Below, piece by piece: positions 1 through 3,814 of a DNA stretch of 4,038 nt. Numbering within the stretch: the stretch's first letter is position 1; each line of letters begins with the position of its first letter. The translations under genes were made by a program, and so were the position numbers. The notes under the pieces are model-generated. The model worked only from the letters and a program-made list of their open reading frames with translations, did no database searches and was not told where the DNA came from. This DNA comes from a virus. Taxonomy: Duplodnaviria > Heunggongvirae > Uroviricota > Caudoviricetes. The stretch lies in IMG/VR virus record IMGVR_UViG_3300029227_000077. One strand, written 5' to 3'.

Positions 1-2883
1 CGCAAACAGCCGCTTCAGGAACACATCGTTCATGAACAACTGATTCCCCTGCGCCACAAATAACGGCGTGGTGTTGCCGTCCTCCGGGTTAATCATCGCA
101 ATACGGTCAGCCAGCAGCAGTATGTTGCTCAGGGGCTGGCCATCAGTATCCTCAATCCCCGCTCCAATACCGGCAACATAGGGTATGCCATTTTTTGTTT
201 TCTGTACCTTCAGCATGTAAAGTGCAGCAAGGTCATCATTTGTGTCCTTCTGCACGCGCTGTATCTGCTGTATGGTGGCGCTCTGGTCCTCCAGCGTTTT
301 ACTGACCGTCTGTGTGATTTCATTGCGGGTTTCTGTGATGGTGGTCTTCATCTCCGCCATCTCGTCCTTCAGCTGACTGTTGTCAATCTCTGCCCACAGC
401 GCCTCTGCCAGATGCGTTTTTCCTATCTTTTCCCGGAAAAACTCCAGATAGCCCGCAGCATCATTGCTCGCCCGTCCACTGGCTTCCACAAAAGCAGATT
501 TACCCACCAGGTTGACGCTGCGCACATAAAACCAGAAATCCTTTCCGGGCTTAATGTGCGGACCGGAGACACTCCACTGACTGCCGGTCCCCAGATAACG
601 GGCAGAGGTTTCCACCTGTGCGGCGTCTGCAATTTTTGCCTCCGAAAACCAGAACTCAAACTGCACCGTCGGGTCATAAATGGTCAGTTTCGGGACTGCC
701 GTTATCTGAAAATACCCCGGCGTCAGTTCAACACCGACAGGCGCTGCCGGTGCGTTAATCCGGAACGTGGTGGTGGCGGGTTCGCCCTGCTGGCCATAGC
801 TGTTAATCGCCCTGACCGTCAGGGTGTATTCCCCGGGAGGCAGGCCACTGAAACGGTGCTCCGTATCGGCAGTGATGGCGGTGGTCAGCAGGCGGCTGTT
901 CTCACCGCTTCCACTGGTCAGGCGCAGACTGAAGCGCACGCCCTTCACCACCCGCGGCGTGTCCCATTTCGCCAGCGCCAGATACTGGCCGTCAGCTGCG
1001 CTCACCTCCACCGTCAGGTGCTGCACTGCCGGTGGGATAACGCTGTTCAGGGTGCCTGACTGCGGCTCAAAGCGGGCCCCGTTATCCACGATGGCTTCTT
1101 TTTCCGGTACGTGCTGCACTGCCGTGATGGCAAAGGTGCCGTCCGTGTTTTCCCGGATGGAGACACAGCGGAACAGGCGACGGCGCAGTGACGGCAGGGA
1201 GAGTCCCCACACCCCGTATGTCTCCACACCATCAGGCAGGGTACTGACCTGTATCCGGTCCGGCGCGGGGTGTGCGGTGATGTCCACACTCACCGGCTTA
1301 CCGCTGCCGTTAATCAGGTTCACCGTGGCGGCACCTGTCCCCGGAAGTGTCACTTCACGGTCCAGCGTCAGGGTGCGGGTGGCAGCATCAATGGACAGGA
1401 CACGTCCGCCGGTCAGGGTCCCGGCATAGTCATTATCACAGATTTCAATAATGTCACCGGGTGTGTGCCGCAGCCCCTGTGACCCGAGTGTGAAATCCAC
1501 CGTCTGCGTTTCCAGCAGTTCGGTCTTTATCACCCACAGCCCGGCACGGTGGGCCTGACCGCGGCTGGTACAGCCGAACGCGTCCATCTTCAGCAGGTTG
1601 CGTCCGTAGCGCAGTATGGCTTCCGGGTCTTCCACCAGTTCCGTGGAGGTCTGCCAGCCGTTCTGCGGGTCGGTGTAATTCACCTCCACCGCCGTGTGCC
1701 GGTCCTTCAGGGCACTGAAGCTGTAGCGGAACCCCACGCCGTTATCATCCACCACCACATCGCTGTTCGTGTACGGCCACACCACATCCGACGTGCGGTC
1801 CTGAACGAACGTCAGCGTCTGGCCGTTCCATACCGGCATACAGCGCATCGCCGAGCAGAAATCACTGAGAACGTCCCACGCCTTACGCTGTTGTGCCAGG
1901 TACGCATTAAAGGTCATCCGCGGCTCTGTGCCCCCGAAACCATCCGGGACCGTCTGGTCGCAGTACTGCCCGATGGCATACAGCGCCCACTTGTCCACAT
2001 CCGCCGCCCCCAGGCGTTTTCCCATCCCGTAGCGCGGGTGAGTCAGCATGTCCCACAGGCACCAGGCCGGGTTGTTGCTGTATGCCGGTTTCAGACTGCC
2101 GTCCCAGATACCACTGTACGTGCGTTTTTCCGGGTCATAGTTTGACGGCACCTGGATGATGCGACCGCGGATATGGTAGTTCACCGTCATCTGCTGGCCG
2201 CCGAACTGCTCCGCATCCACCTGCAGCCCCACAATGGCCGTGTTCGGGTAGCACTGTTTCACATCGATGATTTCGGTGTATGACGACCAGAGCGTCTTAT
2301 TCTGCAGCTGGTCCGTGGTGCTGTCCGCCGTCTCCCTGACCATCCGGATGTTAAAGGGCCGGGGCGGCAGATTATCCAGAATCACCGACGCCAGGAACTG
2401 CGAGGTGGTCTTGCCGTTAATGGTGACATCCTTTTCTGTCACCCAGTTACCGTTACGCTGTAACTGAATCAGCAGACGGACAGAGGACGGATTACGGTCA
2501 CCCTTTGACGTGGTCTCCACCAGTGACTGCACCCCGAAGGTCACCCGCAGGCGGTCAATGTTCGCGGACGTAATGGTGCGCGTCACCGGCTTTGCCTTCG
2601 TCACTTCCACACCCAGTACAGTTTCAGCTCCGGAGGACTCAAAGCCTTCCGGTGGTGTCTGCTCCTGCTCCCCGGCACGCCAGACCGCTGTCACACCGTG
2701 TATCACGGGATTACCGTCCGTGTCCGTCAGCGGGGTTTTGTTCACCAGGATACTCTGCAGTCCCTTCACCGGACCTTCCACCGGTCCCTCACCAATGGCA
2801 TCAATCACGCTCATCATCTGCGTGGATTTGAGATTGTCTTTCGCCTCGCGCGGTGTGTGCGCCTTACCGCCACCTTTACCCAC
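1..2883 (-). CDS. J: Tail tip / host specificity protein J (central tail fibre), N-terminal 961 codons; C-terminal receptor-binding part lies beyond the left edge of the window
   Basis: Continuous minus-strand reading frame from 2883 to position 1 with no in-frame stop (all 961 triplets checked by eye). It is missing from the ORF track only because no stop codon falls inside the window. The N-terminus reads (V/M)[38 protein letters not shown]..., matching lambda gp[23 protein letters not shown]... as I recall it. At the window edge the translation reads ...[65 protein letters not shown], matching the lambda gpJ region ...[18 protein letters not shown]. Start is GTG at 2883..2881, 5 nt downstream of SD GGAGAGGGGG; the nearest upstream in-frame stop is TGA at 2991..2989 with no in-frame ATG in between. 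The plus-strand ORFs listed in this interval are antisense artefacts. Confidence 0.92.
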
Positions 2884-2923: not shown

Positions 2924-2957
2924 CCCAAAAAACAACAGGCACCCCGGAGGATGCCTG
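2924..2957 (-). terminator. Rho-independent terminator-like hairpin plus U-tract on the minus strand, immediately upstream of the J ribosome-binding site
   Basis: Minus-strand RNA 5'-CAGGCAUCC-UCCG-GGGUGCCUG-3' (9-bp stem including one G-U pair, 4-nt loop; plus coordinates 2936..2957) followed directly by UUGUUUUUUGGG (2924..2935). On the plus strand the same hairpin is preceded, not followed, by the A/T run, so it is directional for the minus strand. Confidence 0.55.
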
Positions 2958-2995
2958 TATCATGACTGAATAAAAATTCTGAATATCTTCACATT

Positions 2996-3023
2996 TTCAC
3001 AAACTGACTGTGGCGCGTATAAT
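2996..3023 (+). promoter_or_regulatory. Candidate sigma70-type promoter: -35 TTCACA (2996..3001), 16-bp spacer, -10 TATAAT (3018..3023); AT-rich upstream region 2969..2994
   Basis: Perfect -10 hexamer TATAAT and a 5/6 match to the -35 consensus TTGACA at near-optimal spacing, with an A/T-rich UP-like stretch upstream. Predicted transcription start is about 3030. It points away from J and toward I, antisense to the tail operon. Confidence 0.45.
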
Positions 3024-3029
3024 TTCGCT

Positions 3030-3128
3030 GCGTTAGTGTTTTTTCTGCCCGAGTAACAAAAACAACTCCTTAACATTAATCTTCATTTGTCTGTCCCCGC
3101 AGCTCCGCGATCACTGCGGGATTTTTTT
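3030..3128 (+). ncRNA. Candidate small non-coding RNA (~100 nt) defined by its own promoter and intrinsic terminator, antisense to the I-J intercistronic region of the tail operon
   Basis: Interval between the predicted start (~3030) and the end of the terminator U-tract (3128). The plus strand has no ATG here and only a 6-codon GTG frame with no SD. The sequence is AU-rich with one predicted internal stem (3037..3043 pairing with 3058..3064) before the terminator hairpin. Boundaries are predicted, not measured. Confidence 0.35.
3096..3128 (+). terminator. Rho-independent terminator on the plus strand (stem CCCGCAG/CTGCGGG, 11-nt loop, then A-TTTTTTT)
   Basis: 3096..3102 CCCGCAG pairs with 3114..3120 CTGCGGG (7 bp, 6 of them G-C), followed by A and seven T at 3122..3128. 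It lies 5 nt from the stop codon of I, which is on the opposite strand. On the minus strand the hairpin is not followed by a U-tract. Confidence 0.6.
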
Positions 3129-3133
3129 ATGTT

Positions 3134-3814
3134 TTATCCCTGTCGACCAATAACCACCACCTTTCCGTCTCCGCCTTCATCACGGGTGCTGATGTCCTGA
3201 GAGATACGTCGTGAACCAACCAGCATTTCACCGTAGGGCACCGGCATCGGGTTGCCCTGGGCAATCATGTTGTCCAGTGAGGAAAAATACGTGTTCTGTC
3301 TGCCGTTATCCGTTGCGCGGTAATCCGGTGTTTTTGCCTTCGGGGCCAGCATCTGTGCCACACCGCCCAGTATCATGCTGGCTCCAAGTGAAAACAGCAT
3401 CGTGGTGGCAGAAAAACCACCGGCTGCCAGGGCTGAACCCCATAACGCCATTGATGCTCCGGCCGTGAAGAAAGACCCCACAATGGCAGCTGCCCCCAGC
3501 ACAATCTGTAGTCCGCCCTTTCCGGCTCCGGCCAGTCGCGGCACAATATGGATAACCGTTCCCTCACCCAGTGGTTCGTGAAGGCGGGCATACACCGCCT
3601 CCGGTGCCGTATCCTCACCGGCAATGCGTATCTGGTACCAGCCTTCGTTCATCTGACGGCGGAATCCCGGCACCTGCAGCGACAGGGCGCGGATGGCTTC
3701 CGCCGCCGTGTTCACATACAGGCTGAAGCGGCGGCCAAATCGTTGTAAATCCCCGTGAAGGCAGATGCGTGCCAGTGGCGGTGACGCCAGACAGAATGCG
3801 TTCGTCGTTGCCAT
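3134..3814 (-). CDS. I: Tail (tip) assembly protein I
   Basis: ORF-track ORF of 226 aa. The translation MATTNAFCLASPPLARICLHGDLQRFGRRF...GWYQIRIAGED...VIHIVPRLAGAGKGG...QIVLGAAAIVGSFFTAGA...LFSLGASMILGGVAQMLAPKAKTP...DNGRQNTYFSSLDNMIAQGN...YGEMLVGSRRISQDISTRDEGGDGKVVVIGR is co-linear with lambda gpI as recalled (MA..H..PLASPGMARICLYGDLQRFGRR...GWYQVRIAGRD...IHIVPRVAGAKSGG...QIVLGAAAIAGSFFTAGA...LFSLGASMVLGGVAQMLAPKARTP...DNGKQNTYFSSLDNMVAQGN...YGEMRVGSRVVSQEIS..DEGDGGQVVVIGR) and of similar length. ATG at 3814..3812; stop TAA at 3136..3134. Confidence 0.92.
   Translation of the reverse strand: MATTNAFCLASPPLARICLHGDLQRFGRRFSLYVNTAAEAIRALSLQVPGFRRQMNEGWYQIRIAGEDTAPEAVYARLHEPLGEGTVIHIVPRLAGAGKGGLQIVLGAAAIVGSFFTAGASMALWGSALAAGGFSATTMLFSLGASMILGGVAQMLAPKAKTPDYRATDNGRQNTYFSSLDNMIAQGNPMPVPYGEMLVGSRRISQDISTRDEGGDGKVVVIGRQG

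What the first reader, a model, noticed from the sequence alone, without database searches (positions are those of the whole stretch)
2996..3128. Candidate prophage-encoded small RNA gene, antisense to the tail operon, between I and J
The plus strand has a near-consensus sigma70-type promoter (TTCACA, 16 bp, TATAAT at 2996..3023) with an A/T-rich upstream region. About 100 nt downstream is a canonical intrinsic terminator (GC-rich 7-bp stem and T7 run, 3096..3128). There is no plausible ORF in between: no ATG, and only a 6-codon GTG frame without an SD. Promoter plus short non-coding segment plus terminator is the standard signature of a bacterial sRNA gene. It is transcribed opposite to K-I-J, so it would be complementary to the late tail mRNA about 130 to 230 nt upstream of the J start codon, and could also act in trans on host mRNAs as known prophage sRNAs such as DicF do. 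It would be expressed from its own promoter, so possibly in the lysogen. I do not recognise it as a named sRNA.
Basis: partly seen in the sequence, partly recalled or inferred. Interest (0 to 1): 0.8.

Follow-up and report, generated by a model that had tools for sequence, protein, structure and literature searches.

The report
Known prophage small RNA PasB
The promoter-plus-terminator unit between tail genes I and J is real, but it is the already published Hfq-dependent prophage small RNA PasB (EcOnc22-24 in E. coli O157 Sakai), so this is a correct rediscovery and not a new gene.

Summary
A TTCACA-16-TATAAT promoter (2996-3023; 11/12 match, about 0.01 expected per window) lies upstream of a 7-bp GC stem plus U7 terminator (3096-3128), with no ATG between them. 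The unit sits on the strand opposite K-I-J.

The interpretation (an sRNA gene) is supported, but the gene is already named. The stretch 3046-3128 matches PasB of EPEC E2348/69 at 81 of 83 positions. It holds the exact complement of the published PasB northern probe (3101-3123) and occupies the same I-J slot in the same orientation. PasB was found by Hfq RIL-seq, confirmed by northern blot, and drops strongly in a hfq mutant (Pearl Mizrahi 2021). Its distribution was surveyed by Zhu, Shabalina and Storz (2026).

I also show that the Hfq-CRAC peaks EcOnc22/23/24 of O157 Sakai (Tree 2014; ~85 nt, destabilised without Hfq) lie in the I-J spacers of Sp15, Sp14 and Sp11. They fall on a 76%-identical homologue.

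Across 65 distinct spacers, an upstream block, the -10, a CUUCAU-containing seed and the terminator are conserved islands. Eight of ten top RIL-seq target fragments carry UGAAG, the complement of that seed.

Verdict: already known, low interest. Function and any cis-antisense role remain untested.

The parts
2970..2996 (+). Highly conserved A/T-rich block just upstream of the -35 (about -60 to -35). It may act as an UP-like element or a regulator site. It also marks the left edge of the PasB module.
   Evidence: Most columns of this block are conserved in at least 95% of 65 distinct I-J spacers (23 of 32 columns scored over 2965-2996), and the block stays conserved where the sequence to its left is unrelated. 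The function is inferred, not tested.
2996..3001 (+). -35 hexamer TTCACA
   Evidence: It is identical in E2348/69. It is present in 81 of 120 loci. The Sakai-type variants have a poor -35 such as TTTCCG.
3018..3023 (+). -10 hexamer TATAAT
   Evidence: ATAAT is conserved in at least 95% of variants, and the 16-bp spacer length is kept in 97 of 120 loci (the Sakai-type loci score best with an 18-bp spacer) while the spacer sequence varies.
3030..3128 (+). Predicted primary PasB transcript, 99 nt, starting at the G 7 nt after the -10
   Evidence: The start is inferred from the promoter geometry. In Sakai the Hfq-CRAC peaks, shifted by the +128 coordinate offset, begin 4-6 nt after the equivalent predicted start.
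3046..3128 (+). Stretch equivalent to the published 83-nt PasB RNA
   Evidence: It matches NC_011601.1 1466343-1466261(-) at 81 of 83 positions. The differences are at positions 27 (C to A, window 3072) and 33 (G to A, window 3078). The exact complement of the northern probe lies at 3101-3123.
3067..3090 (+). Probable seed region. The invariant core is AUCUUC at 3079-3084, within UUAAUCUUCAUUUG.
   Evidence: It is a conserved island flanked by variable sequence and is unpaired in the predicted fold. Six to seven of ten top RIL-seq target fragments pair best with this region. UGAAG occurs in 8 of 10 target fragments against 2.3 expected. Zhu et al. 2026 also place the PasB seed just upstream of the terminator.
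3096..3128 (+). Intrinsic terminator and Hfq-binding 3' module: a 7-bp GC stem, an 11-nt loop and U7
   Evidence: The 3' end at 3128 equals the published PasB 3' end. It lies 5 nt from the stop codon of I (3134-3136).
2925..2958 (-). Minus-strand terminator-like hairpin plus T-run, just upstream of the J ribosome-binding site. This is neighbouring context, not part of the PasB module.
   Evidence: 10 pairs. It is present in about two thirds of loci, with one C-G to U-A compensatory change, and is absent from about 35 loci that still carry PasB.
3134..3814 (-). Tail assembly gene I (226 aa), convergent with PasB
1..2883 (-). 5' part of the tail-tip / host-specificity gene J, with a GTG start at 2883-2881

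Best explanation
Window 2970-3128 (+) is a copy of the pasB gene. PasB is a small, Hfq-dependent, base-pairing regulatory RNA carried as a self-contained "sRNA moron" (own sigma70 promoter plus intrinsic terminator) in the spacer between tail genes I and J of lambdoid prophages. It is transcribed against the late operon.

In the lysogen it is made from its own promoter. The predicted primary transcript is about 99 nt; the published species is 83 nt. It ends in a GC hairpin plus U7 tail that binds Hfq. A single-stranded, conserved CUUCAU-containing seed just 5' of the terminator then pairs with UGAAG-type sites in host and horizontally acquired mRNAs. Published RIL-seq partners include napF, tolC, the rpoS leader/start region, hflX, fabR, ler, map and bfp genes. 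Several of the predicted sites lie at or near start codons.

Shown: sequence identity, synteny, the conservation pattern, and (published, for the E2348/69 copy) expression, Hfq dependence and chimeras. Inferred: expression of this particular copy, the exact 5' end, the seed, and the regulatory outcome on any target.
For: - Identity: 81/83 match to PasB, and a 23/23 match to the complement of its northern probe.
- Promoter: the hexamers are identical to those of E2348/69.
- Synteny: same slot and orientation between I and J. All 122 loci carrying the terminator pattern lie between I and J homologues.
- Published data for PasB: validated by northern blot; log2 fold change of -6.8 and -2.4 in the hfq mutant; always RNA2 in RIL-seq chimeras, with 37 interactions.
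- Sakai homologues: EcOnc22/23/24 are Hfq-bound, ~85 nt and destabilised without Hfq. They map inside the I-J spacers of Sp15, Sp14 and Sp11, on the homologous gene.
- Conservation: islands at the upstream block, -10, 5' end, seed and terminator, while the promoter spacer and flanks vary.
- Promoter significance: an 11/12 match is expected 0.01 times per window.
- Seed: 6-7 of 10 targets pair best with nt 37-60 of the 98-nt E2348/69 PasB transcript (window 3067-3090). The napF helix is 16 bp (0 of 200 shuffles match it). UGAAG occurs in 8/10 target fragments, P<0.001.
Against: - No expression data exist for this particular copy or host.
- The published 5' end (equivalent to 3046) lies 16 nt downstream of the start predicted from the promoter, so either the call is imprecise or the RNA is processed.
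- No PasB target has been validated by reporter or compensatory mutation in the papers I could read.
- The original MEME analysis did not recover a common target motif for PasB.
- My UGAAG motif was chosen after seeing the targets. It also overlaps the A-R-N motifs that Hfq binds on mRNAs, which could inflate the enrichment.
- Predicted fold stability is no better than shuffled sequence (z -1.4). This is usual for mostly unstructured sRNAs but gives no support.
- The window variant lacks the first CUUCAC motif of the E2348/69 RNA, so part of the published target set may not transfer.
Confidence: 0.88

Rival explanations
1. The main role is in cis. PasB is perfectly complementary to the I-J spacer of the Q-antiterminated late mRNA. 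It would act as an antisense RNA during induction or superinfection, creating an RNase III substrate or altering the I/J expression ratio. Trans targets would be secondary.
For: Full complementarity follows from the geometry: the gene lies wholly within the I-J spacer, with its 3' end 5 nt from the I stop codon. Every one of 122 family members occupies this exact slot. That fixed position could reflect a position-dependent function and not only a tolerated insertion site.
Against: The same I-J junction in Sakai Sp10 carries an unrelated opposite-strand moron, sodC, so the site simply tolerates insertions. The sRNA body between the 5' end and the seed is poorly conserved (48% pairwise identity), whereas a short seed is conserved, which is the trans-acting pattern. 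The RIL-seq rows I read list only trans partners, although late mRNA is not made in uninduced cultures. This rival does not exclude the best explanation.
Confidence: 0.1
2. The selected feature is a small protein on the minus (late-operon) strand: a 39-41-aa ORF (MKINV...NVK.FRNFIPS) between I and J. The promoter and terminator on the plus strand would be incidental.
For: An ORF of 39-41 aa with the same start and the same stop is open in two diverged lineages, about 40 of 120 loci. Short hypothetical proteins are annotated here in phages PhiR12_1 and 1720a-02. The Sakai-type copy has a GGAG-like Shine-Dalgarno sequence before the ATG.
Against: The frame is broken in about two thirds of loci. 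The window copy reads 17 aa (MKINVKELFLLLGQKKH*) and the E2348/69 copy reads 22 aa. One lineage has lost the ATG. Among intact Sakai-type ORFs the substitutions are 1 synonymous to 10 non-synonymous, and in the 41-aa type 5 to 10 including a stop. The conserved blocks vary at amino-acid-changing positions. Published data show a plus-strand RNA, detected with a strand-specific probe.
Confidence: 0.03
3. This copy is an inactive relic. The motifs are inherited, but the RNA is not made, or not functional, in this host.
For: There are no expression data for this window. The copy carries two substitutions in or next to the seed region relative to the validated RNA. A PasA variant without a terminator is discussed as a possible pseudogene by Zhu et al., so decayed Pas genes exist.
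Against: Promoter hexamers, spacing, terminator and invariant seed core are all intact and identical to the expressed E2348/69 copy. The exact 83-nt variant recurs in 8 independent IMG/VR loci, and the C27A change is the commonest allele.
Confidence: 0.05
4. It is the antitoxin RNA of a type I toxin-antitoxin pair whose toxin is the opposite-strand small ORF.
For: There is an overlapping antisense arrangement of an sRNA and a short ORF.
Against: The ORF has no hydrophobic or transmembrane stretch, is frameshifted in most copies, and shows no coding constraint. No minus-strand promoter reaches the scan threshold. PasB has many trans partners on Hfq.
Confidence: 0.01

Closest known systems
PasB (pathogenicity-associated sRNA B) of EPEC O127:H6 E2348/69, prophage PP6 (Pearl Mizrahi et al. 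2021, Sci Adv, PMC8550237; Zhu, Shabalina & Storz 2026, bioRxiv 10.64898/2026.05.13.724894)
   Same: 81/83 identity. Identical -35, -10, terminator and 3' end. Same position between I and J and same antisense orientation. Exact match to the complement of the northern probe.
   Different: Two substitutions, at position 27 (C to A) and position 33 (G to A). These remove the first of two CUUCA motifs present in the E2348/69 RNA. There is also one extra base in the 5' T-run (3045). Part of the published target list (for example fabR and caiF, and part of the napF helix, all predicted to use CUUCACAU) may therefore not apply.
EcOnc22 / EcOnc23 / EcOnc24 of EHEC O157:H7 Sakai, prophages Sp15, Sp14 and Sp11 (Tree et al. 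2014, Mol Cell, PMC4104026, Table S2)
   Same: Hfq-bound, ~85 nt on northern blot, destabilised without Hfq. They lie in the I-J spacer on the strand opposite I and J. They share the upstream block, the -10, the UUAAUCUUCAU seed and the terminator arms.
   Different: Only 63/83 identity to PasB, with a shorter body (91 nt predicted) and a weak -35 (TTTCCG; 8/12 in total). The equivalence to PasB is my inference from coordinates and alignment. It is not stated in the sources I read.
Other prophage 'moron' sRNAs of lambdoid phages: AgvB, AsxR, HnrS (EcOnc10-12), DicF, StxS
   Same: They are short, Hfq-associated, lysogen-expressed RNAs with their own promoter and terminator. They are inserted in late regions of lambdoid prophages and act in trans on host or virulence mRNAs.
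   Different: They have different sequences and different genomic slots. AgvB and AsxR lie downstream of PR'. HnrS lies between the lysis genes and terminase. No Rfam family reaches its threshold in the window.
Protein-coding morons at the I-J junction (for example sodC in Sakai Sp10)
   Same: Same insertion point and opposite-strand orientation, flanked by the late tail genes.
   Different: They encode a protein (Cu/Zn superoxide dismutase), not an RNA regulator.

Membership tests
PasB sRNA family | Sequence homology to the 83-nt PasB RNA of E2348/69 | tested here: met
   81/83 identical. The complement of the published northern probe is present exactly at 3101-3123.
PasB sRNA family | Location in the spacer between tail assembly gene I and tail-tip gene J of a lambdoid prophage, on the opposite strand | tested here: met
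   I lies at 3134-3814(-) and J starts at 2883(-). The arrangement is the same in E2348/69 and in all 122 related loci.
PasB sRNA family | Own sigma70-type promoter | tested here: met
   The match is 11/12, against 0.01 expected by chance. The hexamers are identical to the expressed copy. The -10 position is conserved across variants and the spacer length across most of them. Promoter activity itself was not measured.
PasB sRNA family | Rho-independent terminator with a long U tail (Hfq 3' module) | tested here: met
   A 7-bp GC stem plus U7 at 3096-3128. The 3' end coincides with the published one.
PasB sRNA family | Expressed as a discrete ~83-nt RNA whose level depends on Hfq | not testable with these tools
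   Shown for the E2348/69 copy and for the Sakai homologues. No data exist for this window.
PasB sRNA family | Conserved single-stranded seed just 5' of the terminator | tested here: met
   The AUCUUC core (3079-3084) is near-invariant in 65 variants and unpaired in the fold. Its complement is enriched in RIL-seq targets. Functional pairing is not proven.
Rfam-curated prophage sRNAs (AgvB RF02702, AsxR RF02703, Esr41 RF02676, STnc100 RF02076, DicF and others) | Covariance-model match at or above the family's gathering score | tested here: not met
   Only four sub-threshold chance hits (E 0.24-8.3), none to these families. PasB has no matching Rfam 15 model.
HnrS (EcOnc10-12) | 66-nt sRNA located between the lysis genes and terminase of lambdoid prophages | tested here: not met
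   HnrS maps between the endopeptidase and terminase genes of Sp10 and has a different promoter and terminator sequence.
Type I toxin-antitoxin | Conserved small hydrophobic toxin ORF antisense to the sRNA | tested here: not met
   The minus-strand ORF is not hydrophobic, is broken in most copies, and shows no coding constraint.

The most novel reading that the evidence does not exclude
PasB might be more than a trans-acting sRNA. Because every family member sits in exactly the I-J spacer, it could double as a cis-antisense brake on the late tail mRNA of its own prophage or of related superinfecting phages that carry the same spacer. The strongly conserved -60 to -35 block would then be a regulator-binding site that sets when this happens. 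A side point is that PasB and EcOnc22-24 form one family with lineage-specific seed-flanking alleles that retarget it. None of this is shown here or in the papers read.
Probability: 0.12. Interest if true: 0.5.

Novelty: already known. Interest (0 to 1): 0.15.

Why it matters
As a discovery it adds little. The gene was reported in 2021 and, as EcOnc22-24, effectively in 2014.

It is useful as a check on the scan. A reader working from raw sequence alone correctly called a real, experimentally validated sRNA that has no Rfam model and is not annotated in any of the RefSeq or GenBank records inspected here.

Three points may help people who work on it:
- PasB and EcOnc22/23/24 appear to be the same family. 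The two literatures do not cross-reference them in what I read.
- The promoter geometry and the Sakai CRAC peaks suggest a primary transcript about 15 nt longer than the published 83 nt.
- The conserved seed core pairs with UGAAG sites, some at start codons (tolC, early rpoS), and common alleles differ in the adjacent CUUCAC motif.

PasB's physiological role remains unknown.

Tried and rejected
- Rfam 15 at E up to 10: four chance hits only (Ref84, Hrs1, two archaeal snoRNA models), so no family.
- svsR of prophage NC-SV: it lies at the 3' end of cI, so it is not this locus.
- HnrS / EcOnc10-12: I suspected a link because it pairs with an AGAAG ribosome-binding site. It maps between the lysis genes and terminase, so it is unrelated.
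- RNA.duplexfold on full-length RNAs gave meaningless whole-length duplexes. I replaced it with an ungapped-helix scan with shuffle controls. One earlier script timed out.
- A genome-contig scan with the terminator pattern found only two odd short contigs, so it gave no information on spread to other genera.
- The supplements of the 2026 preprint hold no variant sequences, so I could not confirm which published allele name (for example PasB-2) the window carries.
- Minus-strand small ORF and type I toxin-antitoxin readings were rejected on frame breakage and substitution pattern.
- No minus-strand promoter was found that would make a second sRNA ending at the 2958-2935 hairpin.

Full report
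**1. Observation**

The window is the K-I-J part of a lambdoid tail operon, read on the minus strand.
- Gene I is 3134-3814.
- Gene J starts at the GTG at 2883-2881 ([22 protein letters not shown]...) and runs off the window.
- The C-terminal part of K overlaps the start of I.

The I-J spacer is about 250 bp. On its plus strand the scan finds TTCACA-16 bp-TATAAT at 2996-3023, an 11/12 match. It is the only site of at least 11/12 in the window. First-order Markov resamples give 0.01 such sites per 4-kb window.

Downstream, CCCGCAG (3096-3102) pairs with CTGCGGG (3114-3120), followed by A and T7 ending at 3128.

**2. What it is**

Rfam 15 has no match, and none of the annotated records I inspected lists an RNA gene here.

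A literature search led to the Pas sRNAs of EPEC E2348/69. Table S6 of Pearl Mizrahi et al. 2021 gives the following for PasB:
- Coordinates NC_011601.1, minus strand, 1466343 to 1466261, 83 nt, prophage PP6.
- Position between E2348C_1436 and E2348C_1437.
- Northern probe AATCCCGCAGTGATCGCGGAGCT.

Those two genes are the tail assembly protein I and gpJ. The reverse complement of the probe occurs exactly at window 3101-3123. Window 3046-3128 matches PasB at 81 of 83 positions. The -35, -10, terminator and 3' end are identical. The finding is therefore a copy of pasB.

**3. Published evidence for the E2348/69 copy**

- PasB was picked from Hfq RIL-seq and its size was confirmed by northern blot. 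Its stability depends on Hfq.
- In the wild type versus hfq-mutant DESeq2 table, PasB has log2 fold changes of -6.79 (activating condition) and -2.39 (non-activating condition).
- It is more abundant under the non-activating condition.
- It ranks 15th by number of interactions (37) and is always RNA2 in chimeras.
- Partners include E2348C_2648, the napF 5'UTR, map, the nlpD-rpoS region, hflX, fabR, the tolC 5'UTR, ftsZ, ler, bfpB, bfpI, perB and caiF.
- Zhu, Shabalina and Storz (2026) found 1,158 PasB hits. They describe PasB as embedded in an operon of phage structural genes, often the only Pas gene in a genome, and they place its seed just upstream of the terminator.

**4. Link to EHEC**

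Table S2 of Tree et al. 2014 lists EcOnc22 (Sp15), EcOnc23 (Sp14) and EcOnc24 (Sp11) as homologous Hfq-CRAC peaks. EcOnc22 gives an ~85-nt northern band that is destabilised without Hfq.

Even with the old coordinates, all three peaks fall inside the I-J spacers of those prophages, on the strand opposite I and J.

I used HnrS/EcOnc11 as a landmark to compare genome versions. Its promoter and terminator define a 66-nt gene in NC_002695.2. This gives an offset between NC_002695.1 and NC_002695.2 of about +126 to +143, and the total length difference is +128.

With +128 the peaks cover 2902842-2902902, 2676771-2676832 and 2166822-2166881. Each lies inside a 91-nt promoter-to-terminator unit that is the Sakai-type homologue of PasB (63/83 identity), and each begins 4-6 nt after the predicted start.

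Neither Table S6 of the 2021 paper nor the 2026 preprint mentions this equivalence. It is my inference.

**5. Family anatomy**

These give 65 distinct spacers. Every locus lies between I and J homologues. Terminator conservation is by construction in this set. Everything else was free to vary.

Mean pairwise identity by segment:

| Segment | Identity |
|---|---|
| J 5' coding sequence | 0.63 |
| J leader | 0.52 |
| Upstream block 2965-2996 | 0.89 |
| -35 and spacer | 0.70 |
| -10 | 0.89 |
| First 22 nt of the transcript region | 0.80 |
| 3046-3057 | 0.48 |
| 3058-3083 | 0.84 |
| Linker to terminator | 0.53 |

The -10 keeps its position in all variants, and the 16-bp spacer length is kept in 97 of 120 loci (the Sakai-type loci score best at 18 bp), while the spacer sequence varies. 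That is the signature of a working promoter. The near-consensus -35 (TTCACA) is present in 81 of 120 loci. The Sakai type has a poor -35.

The block at about -60 to -35 is more conserved than the -35 itself. It stays conserved where the sequence to its left is unrelated, so it belongs to the PasB module. Its role as an UP-like element or a regulator site is only inferred.

**6. Mechanism**

The predicted fold is a weak 5' hairpin, a long unpaired stretch and the terminator. The invariant core AUCUUC (3079-3084), within UUAAUCUUCAUUUG, lies in the unpaired stretch.

I fetched the ten strongest RIL-seq target fragments, each with 50 nt of flank.
- In an ungapped-helix scan, 6-7 of them pair best with nt 37-60 of the 98-nt E2348/69 RNA (window 3067-3090). 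Shuffled fragments give about 1-2. Only napF is individually significant, with a 16-bp helix matched by 0 of 200 shuffles.
- UGAAG is present in 8 of 10 fragments (2.3 expected), and RUGAAGR in 7 of 10 (0.8 expected). The reverse-complement controls give 1 and 0.
- The predicted tolC site covers its AUG, and the rpoS site lies early in the coding sequence.

There are two caveats. The motif was chosen after seeing the targets. It also resembles the A-R-N motifs that Hfq binds on mRNAs.

The window allele differs from E2348/69 at positions 27 and 33. It lacks the first CUUCAC motif that fabR, caiF and part of the napF helix are predicted to use. The C27A change alone is the commonest allele in my set, and the exact window allele recurs in 8 loci.

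**7. The 5' end**

The promoter predicts a start at about 3030, giving 99 nt. The published start, called from coverage and approximate band size, corresponds to 3046. The Sakai CRAC peaks begin just after the promoter-predicted start, and the Sakai band is ~85 nt for a 91-nt prediction. Either the 83-nt call is slightly short or the RNA is processed. I could not decide between these.

**8. Rival readings**

A minus-strand ORF of 39-41 aa (MKINV...FRNFIPS) is open in about 40 of 120 loci. It is broken in the window (17 aa) and in E2348/69 (22 aa). Its substitutions are mostly non-synonymous: 1 synonymous to 10 non-synonymous in the Sakai type, and 5 to 10 in the 41-aa type. It is neither a coding gene nor a type I toxin.

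A cis-antisense role on the late mRNA cannot be excluded. However, the same junction carries an unrelated sodC moron in Sakai Sp10. The conservation pattern is also that of a short seed, not of a long antisense duplex.

**9. Verdict**

The element is the already described sRNA PasB, also known as EcOnc22-24. Novelty: already known. Interest: low.

Noticed in passing
window 2925-2958 (minus strand): There is a strong terminator-like hairpin (ACAGGCATCC-TCCG-GGGTGCCTGT, then TGTTTTTTGG) on the late-operon strand, just upstream of the J ribosome-binding site. It is present in about two thirds of related loci, with a C-G to U-A compensatory change, and is absent from others that still carry PasB. 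It may stop non-antiterminated transcription before J. Its function is unknown.
   Followed up: partly
window 2970-2996: The block upstream of the -35 is more conserved than the -35 itself. It contains TTCACA twice (2988-2993 and 2996-3001). The string CTTCA(C)ATTT occurs both here (2987-2996) and in the sRNA seed (3081-3088). This could be a regulator site or a trace of an internal duplication.
   Followed up: partly
window 3039-3046: There is a homopolymer length polymorphism: T6-C-T in the window versus T7 in E2348/69. It lies at the published PasB 5' end and also toggles the reading frame of the minus-strand small ORF.
   Followed up: partly
L138 (NC_002695.2 1963484-1964334, Sakai prophage Sp10): The I-J spacer of Sp10 carries an opposite-strand Cu/Zn superoxide dismutase gene (ECs_1989) instead of PasB. 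The I-J junction is therefore a general moron insertion site.
   Followed up: no
L005 (NZ_FWPT01000051.1, 460 bp) and L006 (NZ_JBHTEB010000006.1, 3408 bp): Short contigs in the assemblies of Parendozoicomonas haliclonae and Streptomyces flavalbus carry the E. coli-prophage PasB sequence; L005 also holds the 3' part of I. They are most likely contaminating E. coli or phage DNA in those assemblies.
   Followed up: partly
NC_002695.1 versus NC_002695.2 (L137, L139-L141): The EcOnc coordinates in Tree et al. 2014 are offset by about +128 nt relative to the current Sakai RefSeq record at 1.95-2.9 Mb. Anyone mapping those sRNAs onto NC_002695.2 needs this correction.
   Followed up: yes
window 3712-3814: The 3' end of K and the 5' end of I overlap by about 100 nt in different frames. 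From memory, lambda K and I overlap in the same way. This is ordinary.
   Followed up: no
L127 (NC_011601.1 2725554-2725738): The strongest PasB RIL-seq partner under the non-activating condition is the junction of two genes of another prophage (PP9; a gp16-family protein and a hypothetical protein). This suggests prophage-to-prophage cross-talk. My simple helix scan did not find a convincing seed match there.
   Followed up: partly
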